DNA of 64,000 bases from a virus (lineage: Duplodnaviria > Caudoviricetes). Location: positions 64,001 to 128,000 of IMG/VR virus record IMGVR_UViG_3300037484_000435; one strand, given 5' to 3'. Made by a program: the position numbers and the translations under genes. This document shows, piece after piece, positions 38-2,782 of the stretch (position 1 is the first letter of the stretch; each line of letters opens with the position of its first letter). The notes below the pieces were generated by a model. That model saw nothing but the letters and a program-made list of their open reading frames with translations, did no database searches and had not been told where the DNA came from.

Positions 38-216
38 CTGAGTGGCGTTACATATAGCTACTTCATAACGGTCCTAAGGTTAGGCTTTGATTGCAAAGCA
101 CTATTATCGACTGCTAACCTTAATAGGTTAGTTAGGATGGCCGCAAACCCGACGCAATCCGTGTTAGAGGCACGTTAAATAGGGTAGTTCATGCTTTATG
201 GACAGGCTTCCCTCAG
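38..216 (+). ncRNA. Y-RNA-like unit 1 (non-tRNA, multi-hairpin payload)
   Basis: CTGAG-[T]-GG (38-45) pairs with CC-CTCAG (210-216); inner helix CATATAG/CTTTATG; linker GCTACTTC; same frame as six downstream units. Confidence 0.65.
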
Positions 217-234
217 ACACAAGAAAATAAATAA

Positions 235-290
235 CTTACCTCTTACCTAAGTGAGACGAAAGTTTCAAAACACTTATGCAGAGAGGTAAG
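235..290 (+). promoter_or_regulatory. RBS-sequestering hairpin upstream of HNH gene
   Basis: CTTACCTCT (235-243) pairs with AGAGGTAAG (282-290), which covers the SD just before the TTG start at 295; inner TAAGTG/CACTTA. Confidence 0.6.
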
Positions 291-294
291 GAAA

Positions 295-903
295 TTGAAT
301 ATTAAAAGAGAAGAAGCCTTATCCAGTTATTATAAAGACCCGTCGGTTTGCCAGCATTGTGGGCAAATTATAGGGGTTAAGGATAAGCAAAAAATAAATG
401 AGGTCAAGAAGAAGAAGTTCTGCGATCGGTCTTGTGCGGCAAAATATAACAACTCTGCTTTTCCAAAGCGAAATCCTACTAAGGTAGTGCTTTGTAAAAA
501 CTGTGGAAAAGAAGTTAAATTAACACCCCGTTCTAACTCAGTTGGTGGCTACATAAAGAGAGAATTTTGTAATGAGTGTAAACATCTAAACATAGGCAAA
601 AGCGGGAAGTACTCAGACTTGGGTACGCTGACTAAGGGAGAACTGAAGGAGTTATTCCCAACATCGTGGAGATCACTAATAAGTTACAATGCTAGGTGTG
701 TATATTTGCCCCGCGGGTTAGAAGAACCAAATTGTTATTTATGTGATTATGATAGTCACGTTGATGTTTGCCACATCAAGGCAGTTTCTAAATTTGGAGC
801 ATCTGCTAAAATTGAGGAAATCAATTCCCCAGACAATCTAGTCTTTCTATGCCCGAACCATCATTGGGATATGGACCACGGCAAAGTCTGTGTTTTGAAA
901 TAA
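295..903 (+). CDS. HNH endonuclease with N-terminal CxxC zinc-ribbon motifs (putative homing endonuclease)
   Basis: C-terminal CYLCDY...VCHIK...EIN...NLVFLCPNHH motif; paralogous to ORFs at 5953 and 11879. Confidence 0.8.
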   Translation: MNIKREEALSSYYKDPSVCQHCGQIIGVKDKQKINEVKKKKFCDRSCAAKYNNSAFPKRNPTKVVLCKNCGKEVKLTPRSNSVGGYIKREFCNECKHLNIGKSGKYSDLGTLTKGELKELFPTSWRSLISYNARCVYLPRGLEEPNCYLCDYDSHVDVCHIKAVSKFGASAKIEEINSPDNLVFLCPNHHWDMDHGKVCVLK

Positions 904-979
904 TTTAGCGTTGCACTCCTGTAAGTAATTCGTGAGAGAATATCTAGGGTGCTATTTGGCAACGCGGTAGCACCACTAC

Positions 980-1092
980 GGGACGGTAGTTGCTATGAAA
1001 GAACATCTCTTGATTAGGGAAGAAATTAGTTCTAGACAAAGAACATCTCTAAAGGAGAAGAAAGTGTGGTTTAATTCCCATACGTCCCACAA
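980..1092 (+). pseudogene. degenerate tRNA-like sequence with internal duplication
   Basis: GGGAC/GTCCC acceptor-like ends, GTGTGG/CCATAC T-arm-like hairpin, 13-nt direct repeat AAAGAACATCTCT at 998-1010 and 1038-1050; no clean anticodon arm. Confidence 0.35.
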
Positions 1093-1365
1093 GTTACGTA
1101 CTCGGTTACGAACTGGCGGAAGGGCTAATTATTGCAGATCGCGAAATCTCTGTGTATTAATTAGTCTCTAGAGACAATGGCCAGCAAACCACCTCTAGCG
1201 TCTTGTCGGTACGACGTAAAACAATCCGAAGCGGTTACGGTGTTCACTGATAACTTGGTTTGGTCCCAGTTTCTATTCCACAAAAACTCGGGGGTTTACT
1301 GCTTAACCAAAAACAGCGGGGATTTCGGTTGTGTTTATCCAGAAAAACACACCGCGCAATAATAC

Positions 1366-1516
1366 TTACGTAGCGGTGAATGAAGGGTTACTTCAAAGTA
1401 AACAGTCCCGAAAGGGTGCAGGTATCGAATCCTGCCGTTCTGTAATAGGAACGTGGCGGAAGTGGTTTAAATAGACGCACTGTAGTATCAACCTTTCAAA
1501 TAGCTTCCCTATGTAA
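1366..1516 (+). ncRNA. Y-RNA-like unit 2 with circularly permuted class II (Leu-like) cloverleaf
   Basis: TTACGTAG-[C]-GG / CC-CTATGTAA; TGAAGGGT/ACCTTTCA; ACAGT/ACTGT stem; variable arm CCC-GAAA-GGG; T-arm GCAGG-TATCGAAT-CCTGC; loop-closed acceptor CGTTCT/GGAACG; D-arm GCG..CGC. Confidence 0.8.
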
Positions 1517-1526
1517 CAAGAATCTT

Positions 1527-1624
1527 TTGTGGTGGCGGTGGTTAAGGATTTCTTCTAAAAGTGCCTTGGAAAAGCACAGGAGGTGTAAGAGATTTCCATA
1601 TGCCTTACCGAATTATCCCCACAA
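1527..1624 (+). ncRNA. Y-RNA-like unit 3 (minimal, single-hairpin payload)
   Basis: TTGTGG-[T]-GG / CC-CCACAA; GGTTAAGG/CCTTACC; linker ATTTCTTC; payload GTGC/GCAC hairpin. Confidence 0.7.
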
Positions 1625-1632
1625 TACAGAAA

Positions 1633-1772
1633 TTTCATGGCGGCGTCAGTAATCGGTTACTTCCTCGTTTAAAGGTGTGGTCACAGGTTCGAGTCCTGTC
1701 GCGGTCCCAGCGGATCGTGTAGCTCAGTTGGCAGAGCACATTGTTACCGTTACACCCAGTTACCCCATGAAA
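1633..1772 (+). ncRNA. Y-RNA-like unit 4 with circularly permuted cloverleaf
   Basis: TTTCATGG-[C]-GG / CC-CCATGAAA; GTAATCGGT/ACCGTTAC; T-arm ACAGG-TTCGAGT-CCTGT precedes acceptor CGCGGTCC-cagc-GGATCGTG and D-arm GCTC-AGTTGGCA-GAGC. Confidence 0.85.
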
Positions 1773-1952
1773 CAAATCAGACGGCGTTTAAAATCATCTC
1801 CTAGGGAAACCTAGGAACGCCGACCAGTTTGGGAAAAGGTTCGTGGCCAGAATACCATTGCAAGACAGGGACGAAGTGATGGGTAAGAAGCTGGAATGTT
1901 GGATATTAGAAAGAGTCCCCCAACATGCTTCACCTTTTCCTAATAAAAATAA

Positions 1953-2111
1953 ACTAGGCAGCGGCAGAGATGGATACTTCATAGGAACCGCCGTCCTGAA
2001 ATACGGACATGTAGGTGCAAGTCCTACCTGCTCCCCAACATCTATGGGAGCAGTGGTGAAATTAGTATACACAGCGGTAAGTAAGACACCTTCTCAAACT
2101 TTTCTCCTAGT
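1953..2111 (+). ncRNA. Y-RNA-like unit 5 with circularly permuted class II cloverleaf
   Basis: ACTAGG-[C]-AG / CT-CCTAGT; ACCGC/GCGGT stem; variable arm; T-arm GTAGG-TGCAAGT-CCTAC; acceptor CTGCTCCC/GGGAGCAG closed by a 10-nt loop; D-arm GTG..CAC. Confidence 0.8.
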
Positions 2112-2189
2112 AACAAGAAATCTGCGGAGACGTATTGCCTCTAAACCAAGGTAGGGAACGTTTGCTCCTAAGCCTTGGGCAGATAGAAA

Positions 2190-2340
2190 TATTGAGTGGC
2201 GATAGAAAGGATTTCTTCATCCAATCTTTCGGTCGTAGGTTCGAGTCCTACTGCTCCTTCGTTGTTTACAGCGTGGGGAGTGTAGCTCAGTTGGCAGAGC
2301 AAAAGACAATAATAGTGCCTTTCGATTTTTACCCTCAATA
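2190..2340 (+). ncRNA. Y-RNA-like unit 6 with circularly permuted cloverleaf
   Basis: TATTGAG-[T]-GG / CC-CTCAATA; GAAAGG/CCTTTC; TCTTT/AAAGA stem; T-arm GTAGG-TTCGAGT-CCTAC; extended loop-closed acceptor; D-arm GCTC-AGTTGGCA-GAGC. Confidence 0.85.
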
Positions 2341-2579
2341 ACACTAGCGGGTCACTTCAGCCTGTTATCGACCCGCTCAACCAAAACATAATGGGCTCGC
2401 TCGGCCACAGAGCGATAGAATAGTGGCGATTTAGCTTTTATTTTTTTAGACAAATGGCTAGGACTAAATGGGCATACGCTACCGCTCCTGATTCTCGATG
2501 GAGGACATAAGGGTGCCATTGCGAGCTTTGACAAAAGCAAAGCCAAGAGGTAGTAGTTCTAGCCACAAGATAAATCAGT

Positions 2580-2654
2580 GATCCCATCGTCTAGAGGCCA
2601 GGATACATGGTTCTCAGCCATGAGACAGGAGTTCAAATCTCCTTGGGATTGCCA
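2580..2654 (+). tRNA. tRNA-Glu(CTC)
   Basis: GATCCCA/TGGGATT acceptor, CATGG-TTCTCAG-CCATG anticodon arm, AGGAG-TTCAAAT-CTCCT T-arm, GCCA end. Confidence 0.9.
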
Positions 2655-2662
2655 AAAAAGAT

Positions 2663-2782
2663 GAAGGCGTAGCGACCGAATGGGTTACATCAATGGTTAA
2701 TAAACAATCCTAATAAGACTGTTTTAAACGGTTCGAATCCGTGCTCGCAAGAGCTATACCTGTTCAATATATTCTCGCCTTT
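2663..2782 (+). ncRNA. Y-RNA-like unit 7 (T-arm plus short hairpin only)
   Basis: AAGGCG-[T]-AG / CT-CGCCTT; GAATGGGT/ACCTGTTC; linker TACATC; ACGG-TTCGAAT-CCGT then GCTC-GCAA-GAGC. Confidence 0.7.

What the first reader, a model, noticed from the sequence alone, without database searches (positions are those of the whole stretch)
38..2782. Same scaffold, different cargo: three units lack the full tRNA mimic
Seen: unit 1 (38-216) encloses about 130 nt with hairpins GCTTTG/CAAAGC, CTAACCT/AGGTTAG and CGTGT/GCACG. Unit 3 (1527-1624) has only a short GTGC/GCAC hairpin. Unit 7 (2663-2782) has only a T-arm plus a GCAA-capped hairpin. A weaker unit may span 1111-1271 (AACTGG-[C]-GG / TC-CCAGTT). 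Inference: the scaffold works as a Ro60 handle with interchangeable adaptor domains, by analogy to the Deinococcus Y RNA that tethers Rsr to PNPase.
Basis: partly seen in the sequence, partly recalled or inferred. Interest (0 to 1): 0.62.

Follow-up and report, generated by a model that had tools for sequence, protein, structure and literature searches.

The report
Phage Y-RNA units with non-standard cargo
Three small RNA genes upstream of a giant phage's Ro60 gene share the "handle" of their tRNA-mimicking neighbours but carry other folded domains that a related phage conserves, so they look like working Y-RNA variants rather than decayed copies.

Summary
The window is bases 64001-128000 of a 545-kb phage. 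A Ro60/Rsr gene sits at 3097-4683. Upstream lies a co-directional array of tRNAs and Y-RNA-like units about 6 kb long, which earlier notes of this scan had already flagged.

Units 1 (38-216), 3 (1528-1623) and 7 (2663-2782) are real. A profile of the shared 5' module, built without them, ranks all three above every site outside the array. A relative (Rsr 80% identical) keeps all three with compensatory base changes: 10 of 41 predicted pairs in unit 1, 5 of 22 in unit 3. So they are not decaying duplicates.

It also has an anticodon-arm-like hairpin with a 7-nt loop. Its orthologue matches the tRNA model at positions 8-63 (37 bits). Distant phages carry the same type, a native-order, Yrn1-like tRNA mimic. 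In those units the conserved UACUUC motif is the acceptor 5' strand.

I found further units at 980-1088 and 3010-3045.

Short cargo-poor units are common at other phage rsr loci. Verdict: a new variant of a known kind (YrlB/Yrn2/Yrn1-like Y RNAs).

The parts
1..26 (+). 3' end (T arm, acceptor 3' strand, encoded CCA) of a tRNA that starts before the window; by eye tRNA-Asp(GUC). Unit 1 begins 12 nt later.
   Evidence: Sequence read. Not called by ARAGORN because the window edge cuts it.
38..216 (+). Unit 1, 179 nt. Handle: terminal stem 38-42/212-216, bulged U43, GG 44-45 with CC 210-211, stem 2 at 51-57/194-200, CUAC/GUAG at 58-61/184-187. Cargo: a helix at 69-73/139-143 that encloses hairpins at 81-103 and 113-132, then a hairpin at 160-174 with the loop UUAGAGG.
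   Evidence: 5' profile hits E 0.024 and E 0.023, the top hit of the genome with a profile from distant phages. RNAalifold with L009 6602-6776: 41 pairs, 10 changed on both sides, 0-1 in slid controls. Manual helix checks.
295..903 (+). HNH homing-endonuclease gene inserted between units; not part of the RNA system.
   Evidence: Pfam HNH_2 E 8.5e-8. No counterpart in the L009 locus.
980..1088 (+). Extra unit not in the finding. Closed by GGGAC/GUCCC, with two small hairpins and a T-arm-like hairpin at 1064-1083.
   Evidence: Fold z -2.3. The L009 orthologue, about 6941-7014, is closed by UGGCGCG/CGCGCCA instead, and its inner hairpin covaries.
1111..1271 (+). Closure AACUGG-C-GG / UC-CCAGUU. 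Lacks the UACUUC junction motif.
   Evidence: RNAalifold with L009 7166-7342 closes it; 6 of 36 pairs changed on both sides, but the consensus energy is weak. No hit with either 5' profile. Fold z -0.35. Status: plausible, unproven.
1366..1516 (+). Unit 2 (context): same handle with a T arm and a degenerate permuted tRNA-like cargo.
   Evidence: 5' profile E 0.001. 8-bp closure. L009 orthologue at 7577-7733.
1528..1623 (+). Unit 3, 96 nt. Terminal stem 1528-1532/1619-1623, bulged U1533, GG 1534-1535 with CC 1617-1618, stem 2 at 1540-1547/1603-1609. Apical long hairpin: UCUUCU/AGGAGG at 1551-1556/1578-1583 stacked under GUGC/GCAC at 1561-1564/1574-1577.
   Evidence: 5' profile E 0.28, rank 13. 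L009 orthologue at 7465-7567: terminal stem has 3 double changes and 1 single, stem 2 has 2 double changes. RNAalifold: 5 of 22 pairs changed on both sides, none in slid controls.
1633..1772 (+). Unit 4 (context): YrlA-like permuted tRNA mimic on the same handle.
   Evidence: Rfam YrlA 38.2 bits at 1654-1768, below the gathering score of 69. 5' profile E 0.0019.
1953..2111 (+). Unit 5 (context): handle variant (CUAGG/CCUAG closure) with a T arm.
   Evidence: 5' profile E 0.0004. L009 orthologue 80% identical.
2190..2340 (+). Unit 6 (context): YrlA-like permuted tRNA mimic.
   Evidence: Rfam YrlA 38.8 bits at 2204-2327. Best 5' profile hit, E 4e-5.
2580..2654 (+). tRNA-Glu(CUC). It ends 8 nt before unit 7.
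   Evidence: Rfam tRNA 54.3 bits; ARAGORN.
2663..2782 (+). Unit 7, 120 nt. Terminal stem 2663-2669/2776-2782, in which GGCG is fully paired. Stem 2 (acceptor-like) at 2678-2685/2758-2765. D-loop-like AAUGGUUAA at about 2692-2700. Anticodon-arm-like hairpin at 2705-2709/2717-2721 with loop CUAAUAA. T arm at 2728-2742. GCAA-capped hairpin at 2743-2754.
   Evidence: 5' profile E 0.62, rank 14. Versus L009 9582-9708: stem 2 has 2 double and 2 single changes, and the anticodon-like stem has 4 double changes around a conserved 7-nt loop. The L009 cargo hits the tRNA model at positions 8-63 with 37 bits. The window copy gives no tRNA hit.
3010..3045 (+). Mini unit not in the finding: GGAG-U-GG ... 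CC-CUCC around a 10-bp hairpin, about 50 nt upstream of the rsr start codon.
   Evidence: Fold z -2.4. Units with the same GGAG/CUCC closure sit directly before rsr in L009 (9877-9948) and in the distant L017/L018 (9896-9962).
3097..4683 (+). rsr, the phage Ro60 orthologue (528 aa): the presumed protein partner.
   Evidence: Pfam TROVE E 2.6e-22 and vWA_Ro60 E 2.3e-9. Closest solved chain is Thermus phage phiLo Ro60, 9KOP/9L5Y, E 4e-22.

Best explanation
Units 1, 3 and 7 are working members of a phage Y-RNA-like family.

Each is a separate small RNA whose 5' and 3' ends pair into a common handle. The handle runs: terminal stem, one bulged pyrimidine on the 5' strand, a GG:CC step, an asymmetric internal loop that starts GGYG(U/A), a second stem, then a (U)UACUUC junction. 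A different apical domain sits on top of each handle.

Inferred mechanism:
- The array is transcribed with its tRNAs and cut into units.
- The handle docks on the phage Ro60 ring, as Y RNAs do.
- The apical domain decides what else the particle touches.

The three cargoes:
- Unit 1 carries a conserved multi-helix domain.
- Unit 3 is a long-hairpin type, like YrlB/Yrn2.
- Unit 7 is a native-order, Yrn1-like tRNA mimic: D-loop remnant, anticodon-like arm, T arm, plus an extra GNRA hairpin. It has lost its D stem in this phage.

Shown here: the shared handle, position and strand next to rsr, and conservation of structure through compensatory changes.
Inferred: transcription and processing, Ro60 binding, and distinct partners.
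For: - rsr lies directly downstream on the same strand.
- Two neighbouring units hit Rfam YrlA at 38 bits.
- A leave-out 5' profile recovers units 1, 3 and 7 ahead of anything else in 1.09 Mb of search space.
- A profile built only from phages whose Rsr is 41-45% identical makes unit 1 the top hit of the genome.
- Closure statistics: 10 of 12 modules against 14% background.
- Compensatory changes against L009: unit 1 has 10 of 41 pairs, unit 3 has 5 of 22, with slid controls at 0-1. Unit 7's stem 2 and anticodon-like stem also covary.
- The handle occurs 4-6 times just upstream of rsr in L016-L021, mostly as 67-80-nt units with no T loop.
- Native-order tRNA-like units on that handle exist in L009 (37 bits), L017 (32.2 bits) and L021 (30.8 bits). 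In L017 and L021 the UACUUC motif aligns to the acceptor 5' strand plus U8.
- No conserved ORF covers the units.
- Units abut tRNAs: 12 nt after tRNA-Asp and 8 nt after tRNA-Glu. This fits processing from one precursor, as published for M. smegmatis YrlA/YrlB (PMC4201824).
Against: - There is no expression or binding evidence of any kind.
- Units 1, 3 and 7 give no Rfam YrlA or Y_RNA hit at E up to 10.
- Fold z-scores are unremarkable.
- Covariation rests on one relative, two for part of unit 7. The structures were derived from the same alignments, which inflates the counts.
- The individual 5' profile E-values for units 3 and 7 are above 0.1.
- Unit 7's terminal stem pairs differently from the other units. 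Its tRNA-likeness varies between relatives (strong in L009, weak here, rearranged in L014), which could mean relaxed constraint.
- Consensus promoter and terminator scans found nothing beyond chance.
Confidence: 0.6

Rival explanations
1. They are decaying duplicates of tRNA-mimicking (YrlA-type) units. The handle survives, but the cargo is eroding and has no function.
For: - Unit 7 lacks the D stem that its L009 orthologue has.
- The L014 version is rearranged further.
- The weak unit at 1111-1271 is poorly conserved in sequence.
- Units have been gained, lost and reordered between the two phages.
Against: - Cargo helices of units 1 and 3 are kept by double compensatory changes. A 27-nt junction stretch of unit 1 differs at one position between phages whose Rsr is only 80% identical.
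- Non-tRNA cargo units are the majority type at distant phage rsr loci.
- Unit 7's architecture is an old, conserved class and not a truncation.
Confidence: 0.1
2. They are real structured RNAs but work without Ro60. They could be processing punctuation or stabilisers inside a tRNA operon, or decoys for host nucleases and other factors that recognise tRNA-like shapes. On this view the nearness of rsr is incidental.
For: - Units are interleaved with genuine tRNAs here and in L017.
- Several cargoes are tRNA-like.
- The phage carries an RNA-repair set, including RtcB.
- No binding data exist.
Against: - The handle is found next to rsr in every phage locus examined, across Rsr identities of 28-80%.
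- In the own genome it occurs nowhere else above background.
- Its 5' strand resembles the published Ro60-contact motif GNCGAA (PMC4201824).
- Non-tRNA cargoes (units 1 and 3) do not fit a tRNA-decoy role.
Confidence: 0.15
3. They are cis-acting leader or regulatory structures for neighbouring genes: unit 7 for rsr, unit 1 for the HNH endonuclease.
For: - Unit 7 lies 315 nt upstream of rsr.
- Unit 1 lies 79 nt upstream of the HNH gene.
- A separate mini unit sits about 50 nt before rsr in several phages.
Against: - The HNH gene is absent from the L009 locus, yet unit 1 is conserved there.
- In L009 two more units separate the unit 7 orthologue from rsr.
- Unit 3 lies between two other units, with no gene nearby.
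Confidence: 0.05

Closest known systems
YrlB (S. Typhimurium, M. smegmatis) and Yrn2 (D. radiodurans): second Y RNAs without a full tRNA-like domain (Chen et al. 2014, PMC4201824)
   Same: - Encoded on the same strand near rsr, beside a tRNA-mimicking Y RNA.
- The termini pair into a stem that carries the Ro60-contact motif.
- The cargo is a long hairpin, or only a T arm.
- The paper already suggests they let Ro60 form particles with other components.
   Different: - No sequence similarity was found.
- Here there are several such units per locus instead of one.
- Unit 1's cargo is a roughly 120-nt multi-helix domain, not a hairpin.
- Unit 3's loop is not pyrimidine-rich.
- The contact motif is GGYG(U/A), not GNCGAA.
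D. radiodurans Yrn1 (PMC4201824)
   Same: Like unit 7 and its relatives, the tRNA-like part is in native order. It has D-loop features without a full D arm, then an anticodon-arm-like 5-bp stem, then a T arm. The Y stem stands in the acceptor position.
   Different: - Yrn1's 'anticodon loop' has 6 nt; unit 7's has the canonical 7.
- Unit 7 has an extra GNRA hairpin after the T arm.
- It shares its handle with YrlA-like units in the same array, whereas the paper regarded the two types as independently evolved.
- PNPase tethering is shown for Yrn1 and is untested here.
YrlA family (Rfam RF02553)
   Same: Same genomic context. The handle's 5' strand is similar (CGGCGA versus GGCGU/A). Neighbouring units 4 and 6 match the model weakly.
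   Different: Units 1, 3 and 7 do not match the model at all. They lack the defining order: T arm, acceptor stem-loop, D arm.
Thermus phage phiLo Ro60 with Yrl1/Yrl2 (PMC12135203; PDB 9KOP, 9L5Y)
   Same: - A phage-encoded Ro60, the closest solved relative of this Rsr.
- It has simple stem-bulge-stem Y-like RNAs upstream that bind it in vitro and bridge to host PNPase.
   Different: - phiLo has two RNAs chosen by a CGAA motif.
- Here there are many units with varied cargo.
- No biochemistry exists for this phage.

Membership tests
YrlA (Rfam RF02553) | Score at or above the curated gathering score (69 bits) | tested here: not met
   No hit for units 1, 3 or 7 at E up to 10. Units 4 and 6 reach only 38 bits.
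YrlA (Rfam RF02553) | Permuted tRNA-like domain: T arm, then acceptor-like stem-loop, then D arm | tested here: not met
   Unit 1 has none of these. Unit 3 has none. Unit 7 has a T arm followed by a hairpin but no D arm after it, and its arm order is native.
Bacterial/phage Y RNA (Ro60-bound ncRNA, PMC4201824) | Encoded within about 2-3 kb of rsr on the same strand | tested here: met
   Units lie 315 to 3060 nt upstream of rsr at 3097, all on the + strand.
Bacterial/phage Y RNA (Ro60-bound ncRNA, PMC4201824) | 5' and 3' ends pair into a stem with a bulged helix | tested here: met
   Terminal stems are present. Unit 3's covaries with L009; units 1 and 7 are nearly invariant. A 1-nt 5' bulge is present in units 1 and 3 and absent in unit 7.
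Bacterial/phage Y RNA (Ro60-bound ncRNA, PMC4201824) | GNCGAAN0-1G motif near the 5' end | tested here: inconclusive
   Unit 7 reads GGCGUAG (one mismatch), unit 1 GGCGUUA, unit 3 GGCGGUG. Distant phage units read GGCGUAG/GGCGAUA. This is a variant motif, not the published one.
Bacterial/phage Y RNA (Ro60-bound ncRNA, PMC4201824) | Physical binding to Ro60/Rsr and Rsr-dependent accumulation | not testable with these tools
   Needs RIP/EMSA and an rsr mutant.
Yrn1-type native-order tRNA mimic | T arm with a canonical 7-nt UUCRANY loop | tested here: met
   Unit 7 has ACGG-UUCGAAU-CCGT at 2728-2742. It is conserved in L009 and covaries in L014.
Yrn1-type native-order tRNA mimic | Anticodon-arm-like hairpin between the D and T elements | tested here: met
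   Stem at 2705-2709/2717-2721 with the 7-nt loop CUAAUAA. Four double compensatory changes against L009, whose loop is CUAAAAA.
Yrn1-type native-order tRNA mimic | D arm or D-loop features 5' of the anticodon arm | tested here: inconclusive
   The window copy keeps AAUGGUUAA but has no clear D stem and no tRNA-model hit. The L009 orthologue has the D arm: tRNA model positions 8-63, 37 bits.
tRNA (Rfam RF00005) | Full cloverleaf with an acceptor stem and a free 3' end | tested here: not met
   The window's unit 7 gives no hit. The orthologue matches only positions 8-63. The anticodon-like triplet starts with A34 and no CCA end is present.

The most novel reading that the evidence does not exclude
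One phage Ro60 ring is served by a library of exchangeable Y-RNA adaptors built on a single handle. That handle descends from a tRNA acceptor stem, and the invariant UACUUC motif is its relic. Both tRNA-mimic topologies known from bacteria (YrlA-like permuted and Yrn1-like native order), as well as non-tRNA cargoes such as unit 1's multi-helix domain and unit 3's Shine-Dalgarno-like hairpin, arose by swapping cargo on this handle. Each cargo would direct Ro60 to a different host RNA or protein during infection.
Probability: 0.3. Interest if true: 0.75.

Novelty: new variant of a known kind. Interest (0 to 1): 0.55.

Why it matters
What the variable part of a Y RNA does is still largely open, in bacteria and in animals. 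Here nature offers many cargoes on one handle beside one Ro60, with orthologues for comparison. That makes "does the cargo choose the partner?" directly testable with pull-downs.

Native-order and permuted tRNA mimics sit on the same handle, and the UACUUC motif aligns to an acceptor strand. Together these suggest that Yrn1-type and YrlA-type Y RNAs may share an origin, contrary to the published view that they arose independently.

For phage biology, it points to Ro60 particles as a diversified tool for handling RNA during infection.

Tried and rejected
- Folding energy against shuffles: not significant for any of the four units. I did not use it as support.
- Rfam at permissive thresholds: nothing for units 1 and 3, or for the window's unit 7.
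- Phage GenBank blastn of 1-3100: no match.
- Searches for more relatives:
  - IMG/VR with the Rsr protein and with the conserved rsr leader pattern: no close relatives.
  - An alignment query gave only phages at 41-45% identity.
  - The metagenome scan gave one 61% relative with 122 nt upstream, which is useless here.
  - Contigs of the 94%, 90%, 60% and 47% relatives could not be fetched.
  - L009-L013 turned out to be one phage.
- Terminal-stem closure as a stand-alone pattern is too common (0.84 per kb in background) to prove a unit. It is informative only when conditioned on the 5' module.
- I abandoned a covariance model of the handle. MAFFT put several rows one column out of register at both ends, so the stem columns would have been inconsistent.
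- Antisense targets of the conserved cargo segments in the phage genome: none with up to 3 mismatches.
- Coding explanation: short ORFs overlap the units, but tblastn to L009 gives only fragmentary hits in mixed frames and on both strands.
- Group I intron or split tRNA for the tRNA-like halves at 1715 and 2275: dropped once they aligned to the YrlA model as D arms of units 4 and 6.
- My first pairing for unit 1's inner helix (CGRU/RUCG) gave way to the RNAalifold helix at 69-73/139-143, which has a compensatory change.

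
Full report
**Setting.** The window is bases 64001-128000 of a 545,322-bp IMG/VR virus record rated complete. An ORF at 3097-4683 (+) carries the TROVE and Ro60 vWA domains. Its closest solved relative is the Ro60 of Thermus phage phiLo. Upstream, on the same strand, runs a gene-poor stretch from about 3.15 kb before the window start to window position 3050. It holds tRNAs, three homing-endonuclease genes and many small structured units. Rfam gives sub-threshold YrlA hits (38 bits, gathering score 69) for units 4 and 6 only. Earlier notes of this scan had already flagged the array as a whole. 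This report concerns the units said to lack the full tRNA mimic.

**The handle.** I compared units in this genome, in a relative (L009, Rsr 80% identical) and in distant phages. The shared part runs as follows:
- a terminal stem of 4-9 bp with no conserved sequence;
- one bulged U or C on the 5' strand;
- GG paired to CC;
- an asymmetric internal loop that begins GGYG(U/A) on the 5' side and (C/U)UU on the 3' side;
- a second stem of 6-8 bp;
- a nearly invariant (U)UACUUC at the 5' junction with the cargo.

**Is the handle more than chance?** A profile of the 5' module was built from 17 units, leaving out units 1, 3 and 7 and their orthologues. Searched over both strands of the whole genome, its 14 best hits all fall in the array on the + strand. 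The held-out units rank 11th, 13th and 14th (E 0.024, 0.28, 0.62). The best hit elsewhere has E 1.9. Ten of twelve modules have a complementary 3' partner after a CC step, against 14% of background GGYG sites (P 1.4e-7). Closure alone is too common to count as evidence.

**The handle in other phages.** The same profile finds four to six sites just upstream of rsr, on the rsr strand, in phage contigs whose Rsr is 28-45% identical (L016-L021). Their stems are again complementary and unrelated in sequence. A profile built only from those distant phages makes unit 1 the top hit of this genome (E 0.023). It does not reach units 3 and 7.

**Unit 1 (38-216).** The minimum-energy fold is not unusual (z -1.8) and does not even close the terminal stem. 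The L009 orthologue (6602-6776) settles the matter.
- RNAalifold finds 41 pairs that form in both sequences. Ten changed on both sides, against 0-1 when the 3' partners are slid by 1-3 columns. The structure was derived from the same two sequences, so these numbers are generous.
- The fold is: terminal stem, GG:CC, stem 2 (51-57/194-200), then CUAC/GUAG. Their stems differ between the phages: GCUUUG/CAAAGC against GCCCUC/GAGG-GC, and an A-U to G-C change in the second.
- The junction strand (UACUUCAUAACGRUCCUAAGGUUAGGC) differs at a single position.
- The third hairpin (160-174, loop UUAGAGG) is not matched in L009. However, an 18-nt block over it recurs with two differences in the unit that ends about 1 kb upstream, in the part of the array before the window start.

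**Unit 3 (1528-1623).**
- The terminal stem UGUGG/CCACA becomes GGCAG/CUGUC in L009: three double changes and one single.
- Stem 2 changes GGU-AAGG/CCUUACC to GCAAAGG/CCUUUGC.
- In both phages the conserved CUUC tract can pair with a purine tract (AGGAGG here, AAGGAG in L009) directly under the invariant GUGC/GCAC hairpin. This gives one long bulged hairpin.
- RNAalifold preferred a competing GCAC/GUGU hairpin. All these bases are invariant, so the data cannot decide between them.
- The purine tract is also a perfect Shine-Dalgarno sequence with no usable start codon behind it (read). Whether that matters is open.
- This unit is the nearest thing here to the published YrlB/Yrn2 'long hairpin' Y RNAs (PMC4201824).

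**Unit 7 (2663-2782).** The T arm and the GCAA hairpin are there, but there is more.
- Between the UACAUC junction and the T arm lie AAUGGUUAA and a hairpin with a 7-nt loop, CUAAUAA.
- In L009 (9582-9708) the five loop-proximal pairs of that hairpin differ at four positions on both sides. The loop stays CUAAAAA. Stem 2 has two double and two single changes.
- The L009 cargo matches the Rfam tRNA model from position 8 to 63, covering the D arm, anticodon arm and T arm in natural order. The score is 37 bits against a gathering score of 29.
- The window copy has lost the D stem and gives no hit. L014 (Rsr 77%) keeps the T arm (with covariation) and the GNRA hairpin but is otherwise rearranged.
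- Distant phages each carry one unit of this kind on the same handle: L017 8756-8828 at 32.2 bits and L021 9879-9949 at 30.8 bits, both over the full model length. In these alignments GGUACUU or GGAUACUU, which is the conserved UACUUC motif, is the acceptor 5' strand plus U8.

So unit 7 belongs to an old class in which stem 2 stands in for the acceptor stem. That is the arrangement described for D. radiodurans Yrn1: D-loop features without a full D arm, then an anticodon-like arm, then a T arm (PMC4201824). It is not a cut-down YrlA. Its terminal stem differs from the other units in pairing GGCG fully with CGCC.

- The 1111-1271 closure is as described. L009 keeps it with a U-A to U-G change, and RNAalifold closes it (6 of 36 pairs doubly changed, weak energy). 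It lacks the UACUUC motif and neither profile finds it. I rate it plausible only.
- A further unit at 980-1088 is closed by GGGAC/GUCCC here and UGGCGCG/CGCGCCA in L009. It carries a T-arm-like hairpin.
- A 36-nt mini unit lies at 3010-3045.
- So 'three' is an undercount. Non-standard cargo is the rule here, not the exception.

**What they are not.**
- No conserved reading frame covers them.
- The HNH gene beside unit 1 is missing from L009, so unit 1 does not serve it.
- Consensus promoter and terminator scans show nothing above chance. Units abut tRNAs by 8-12 nt. Both facts fit one processed precursor, as shown for M. smegmatis YrlA/YrlB (PMC4201824), but this is inference.
- Cargo segments have no antisense target in the phage genome.

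**Mechanism and limits.** The best reading is that these are Y RNAs in the functional sense. The handle would dock on the phage Ro60, and the cargo would set the partner or substrate. Support comes from position, the motif's likeness to the published Ro60-contact sequence GNCGAA, the strict link of the handle to rsr across distant phages, and purifying selection on cargo structure. The phage encodes RtcB but no RNase PH/PNPase domain. A PNPase-type partner would therefore have to be the host's, as in phiLo (PMC12135203).

**Novelty.** Already published:
- Y RNAs without a full tRNA mimic;
- Y RNAs in phages;
- the idea that extra Y RNAs widen Ro60's partners (PMC4201824, PMC12135203);
- TROVE proteins in jumbo phages (PMC7824862).

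New here:
- the particular cargoes;
- native-order and permuted tRNA mimics coexisting on one handle;
- the reading of UACUUC as an acceptor-strand relic;
- the spread of this handle across phage rsr loci.

I class it as a new variant of a known kind.

Noticed in passing
window 3010-3045; L009 9877-9948; L017 and L018 9896-9962: A mini handle-only unit with the same GGAG/CUCC terminal stem sits 35-55 nt upstream of the rsr start codon. It is present in this phage, its relative and distant phages (Rsr 41%). It could be a Ro60-binding site in the rsr leader, giving feedback control.
   Followed up: partly
window 1272-1364; L009 7345-7463: 82% conserved stretch with repeated CCA(N)AAAAAC...GGGG(A/U)UUUCGG motifs and a GUGUUU/AAACAC hairpin, just before unit 2 (before the unit 3 orthologue in L009). 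It may be a promoter or a protein-binding region for the downstream units.
   Followed up: no
window 2389-2579 (core 2457-2565); L009 9090-9280: The best conserved non-coding stretch of the region (80% over 280 nt, E 5e-64). It folds into an RNA of about 110 nt closed by a 10-bp helix, GGCUAGGACU/AGUUCUAGCC, directly upstream of tRNA-Glu. It does not have the usual handle and has no Rfam match.
   Followed up: partly
window 1780-1950; L009 7751-7897: Another conserved non-coding block (76% over 149 nt) between units 4 and 5. It has no handle and no Rfam match.
   Followed up: no
3' flanks of units, e.g. window 217-224, 1089-1093, 1517-1522, 2112-2118, 2566-2570: About half of the units (8 of 16 listed) are followed within a few bases by ACAAG or CAAGA. 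L009 units show it too. It may be a common processing or 3'-tail signal.
   Followed up: partly
window 237-289: A 9-bp hairpin, CUUACCUCU/AGAGGUAAG, ends in the ribosome-binding region of the HNH endonuclease gene (TTG start at 295). It may restrain translation of that gene.
   Followed up: no
window 4730-4915, 11552-11817: Several phage tRNAs are unusually long for their type: His 90 nt, Trp 87 nt, Pro 86 nt by ARAGORN. Their Rfam scores are also low. They may carry long extra arms or insertions.
   Followed up: no
window 24685-24800, 26783-26859, 27400-27515, 29410-29486: Two group II introns (domain 1-4 and catalytic-domain hits, two of each) lie on the + strand, apparently inside one gene region.
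   Followed up: no
window versus L009 order of units: The order is unit 2 then unit 3 in the window, and unit 3 then unit 2 in L009. Unit 4 has no L009 counterpart, and L009 has extra units at 6783-6850, 7860-8040 and 9716-9860. Units behave as movable cassettes.
   Followed up: partly
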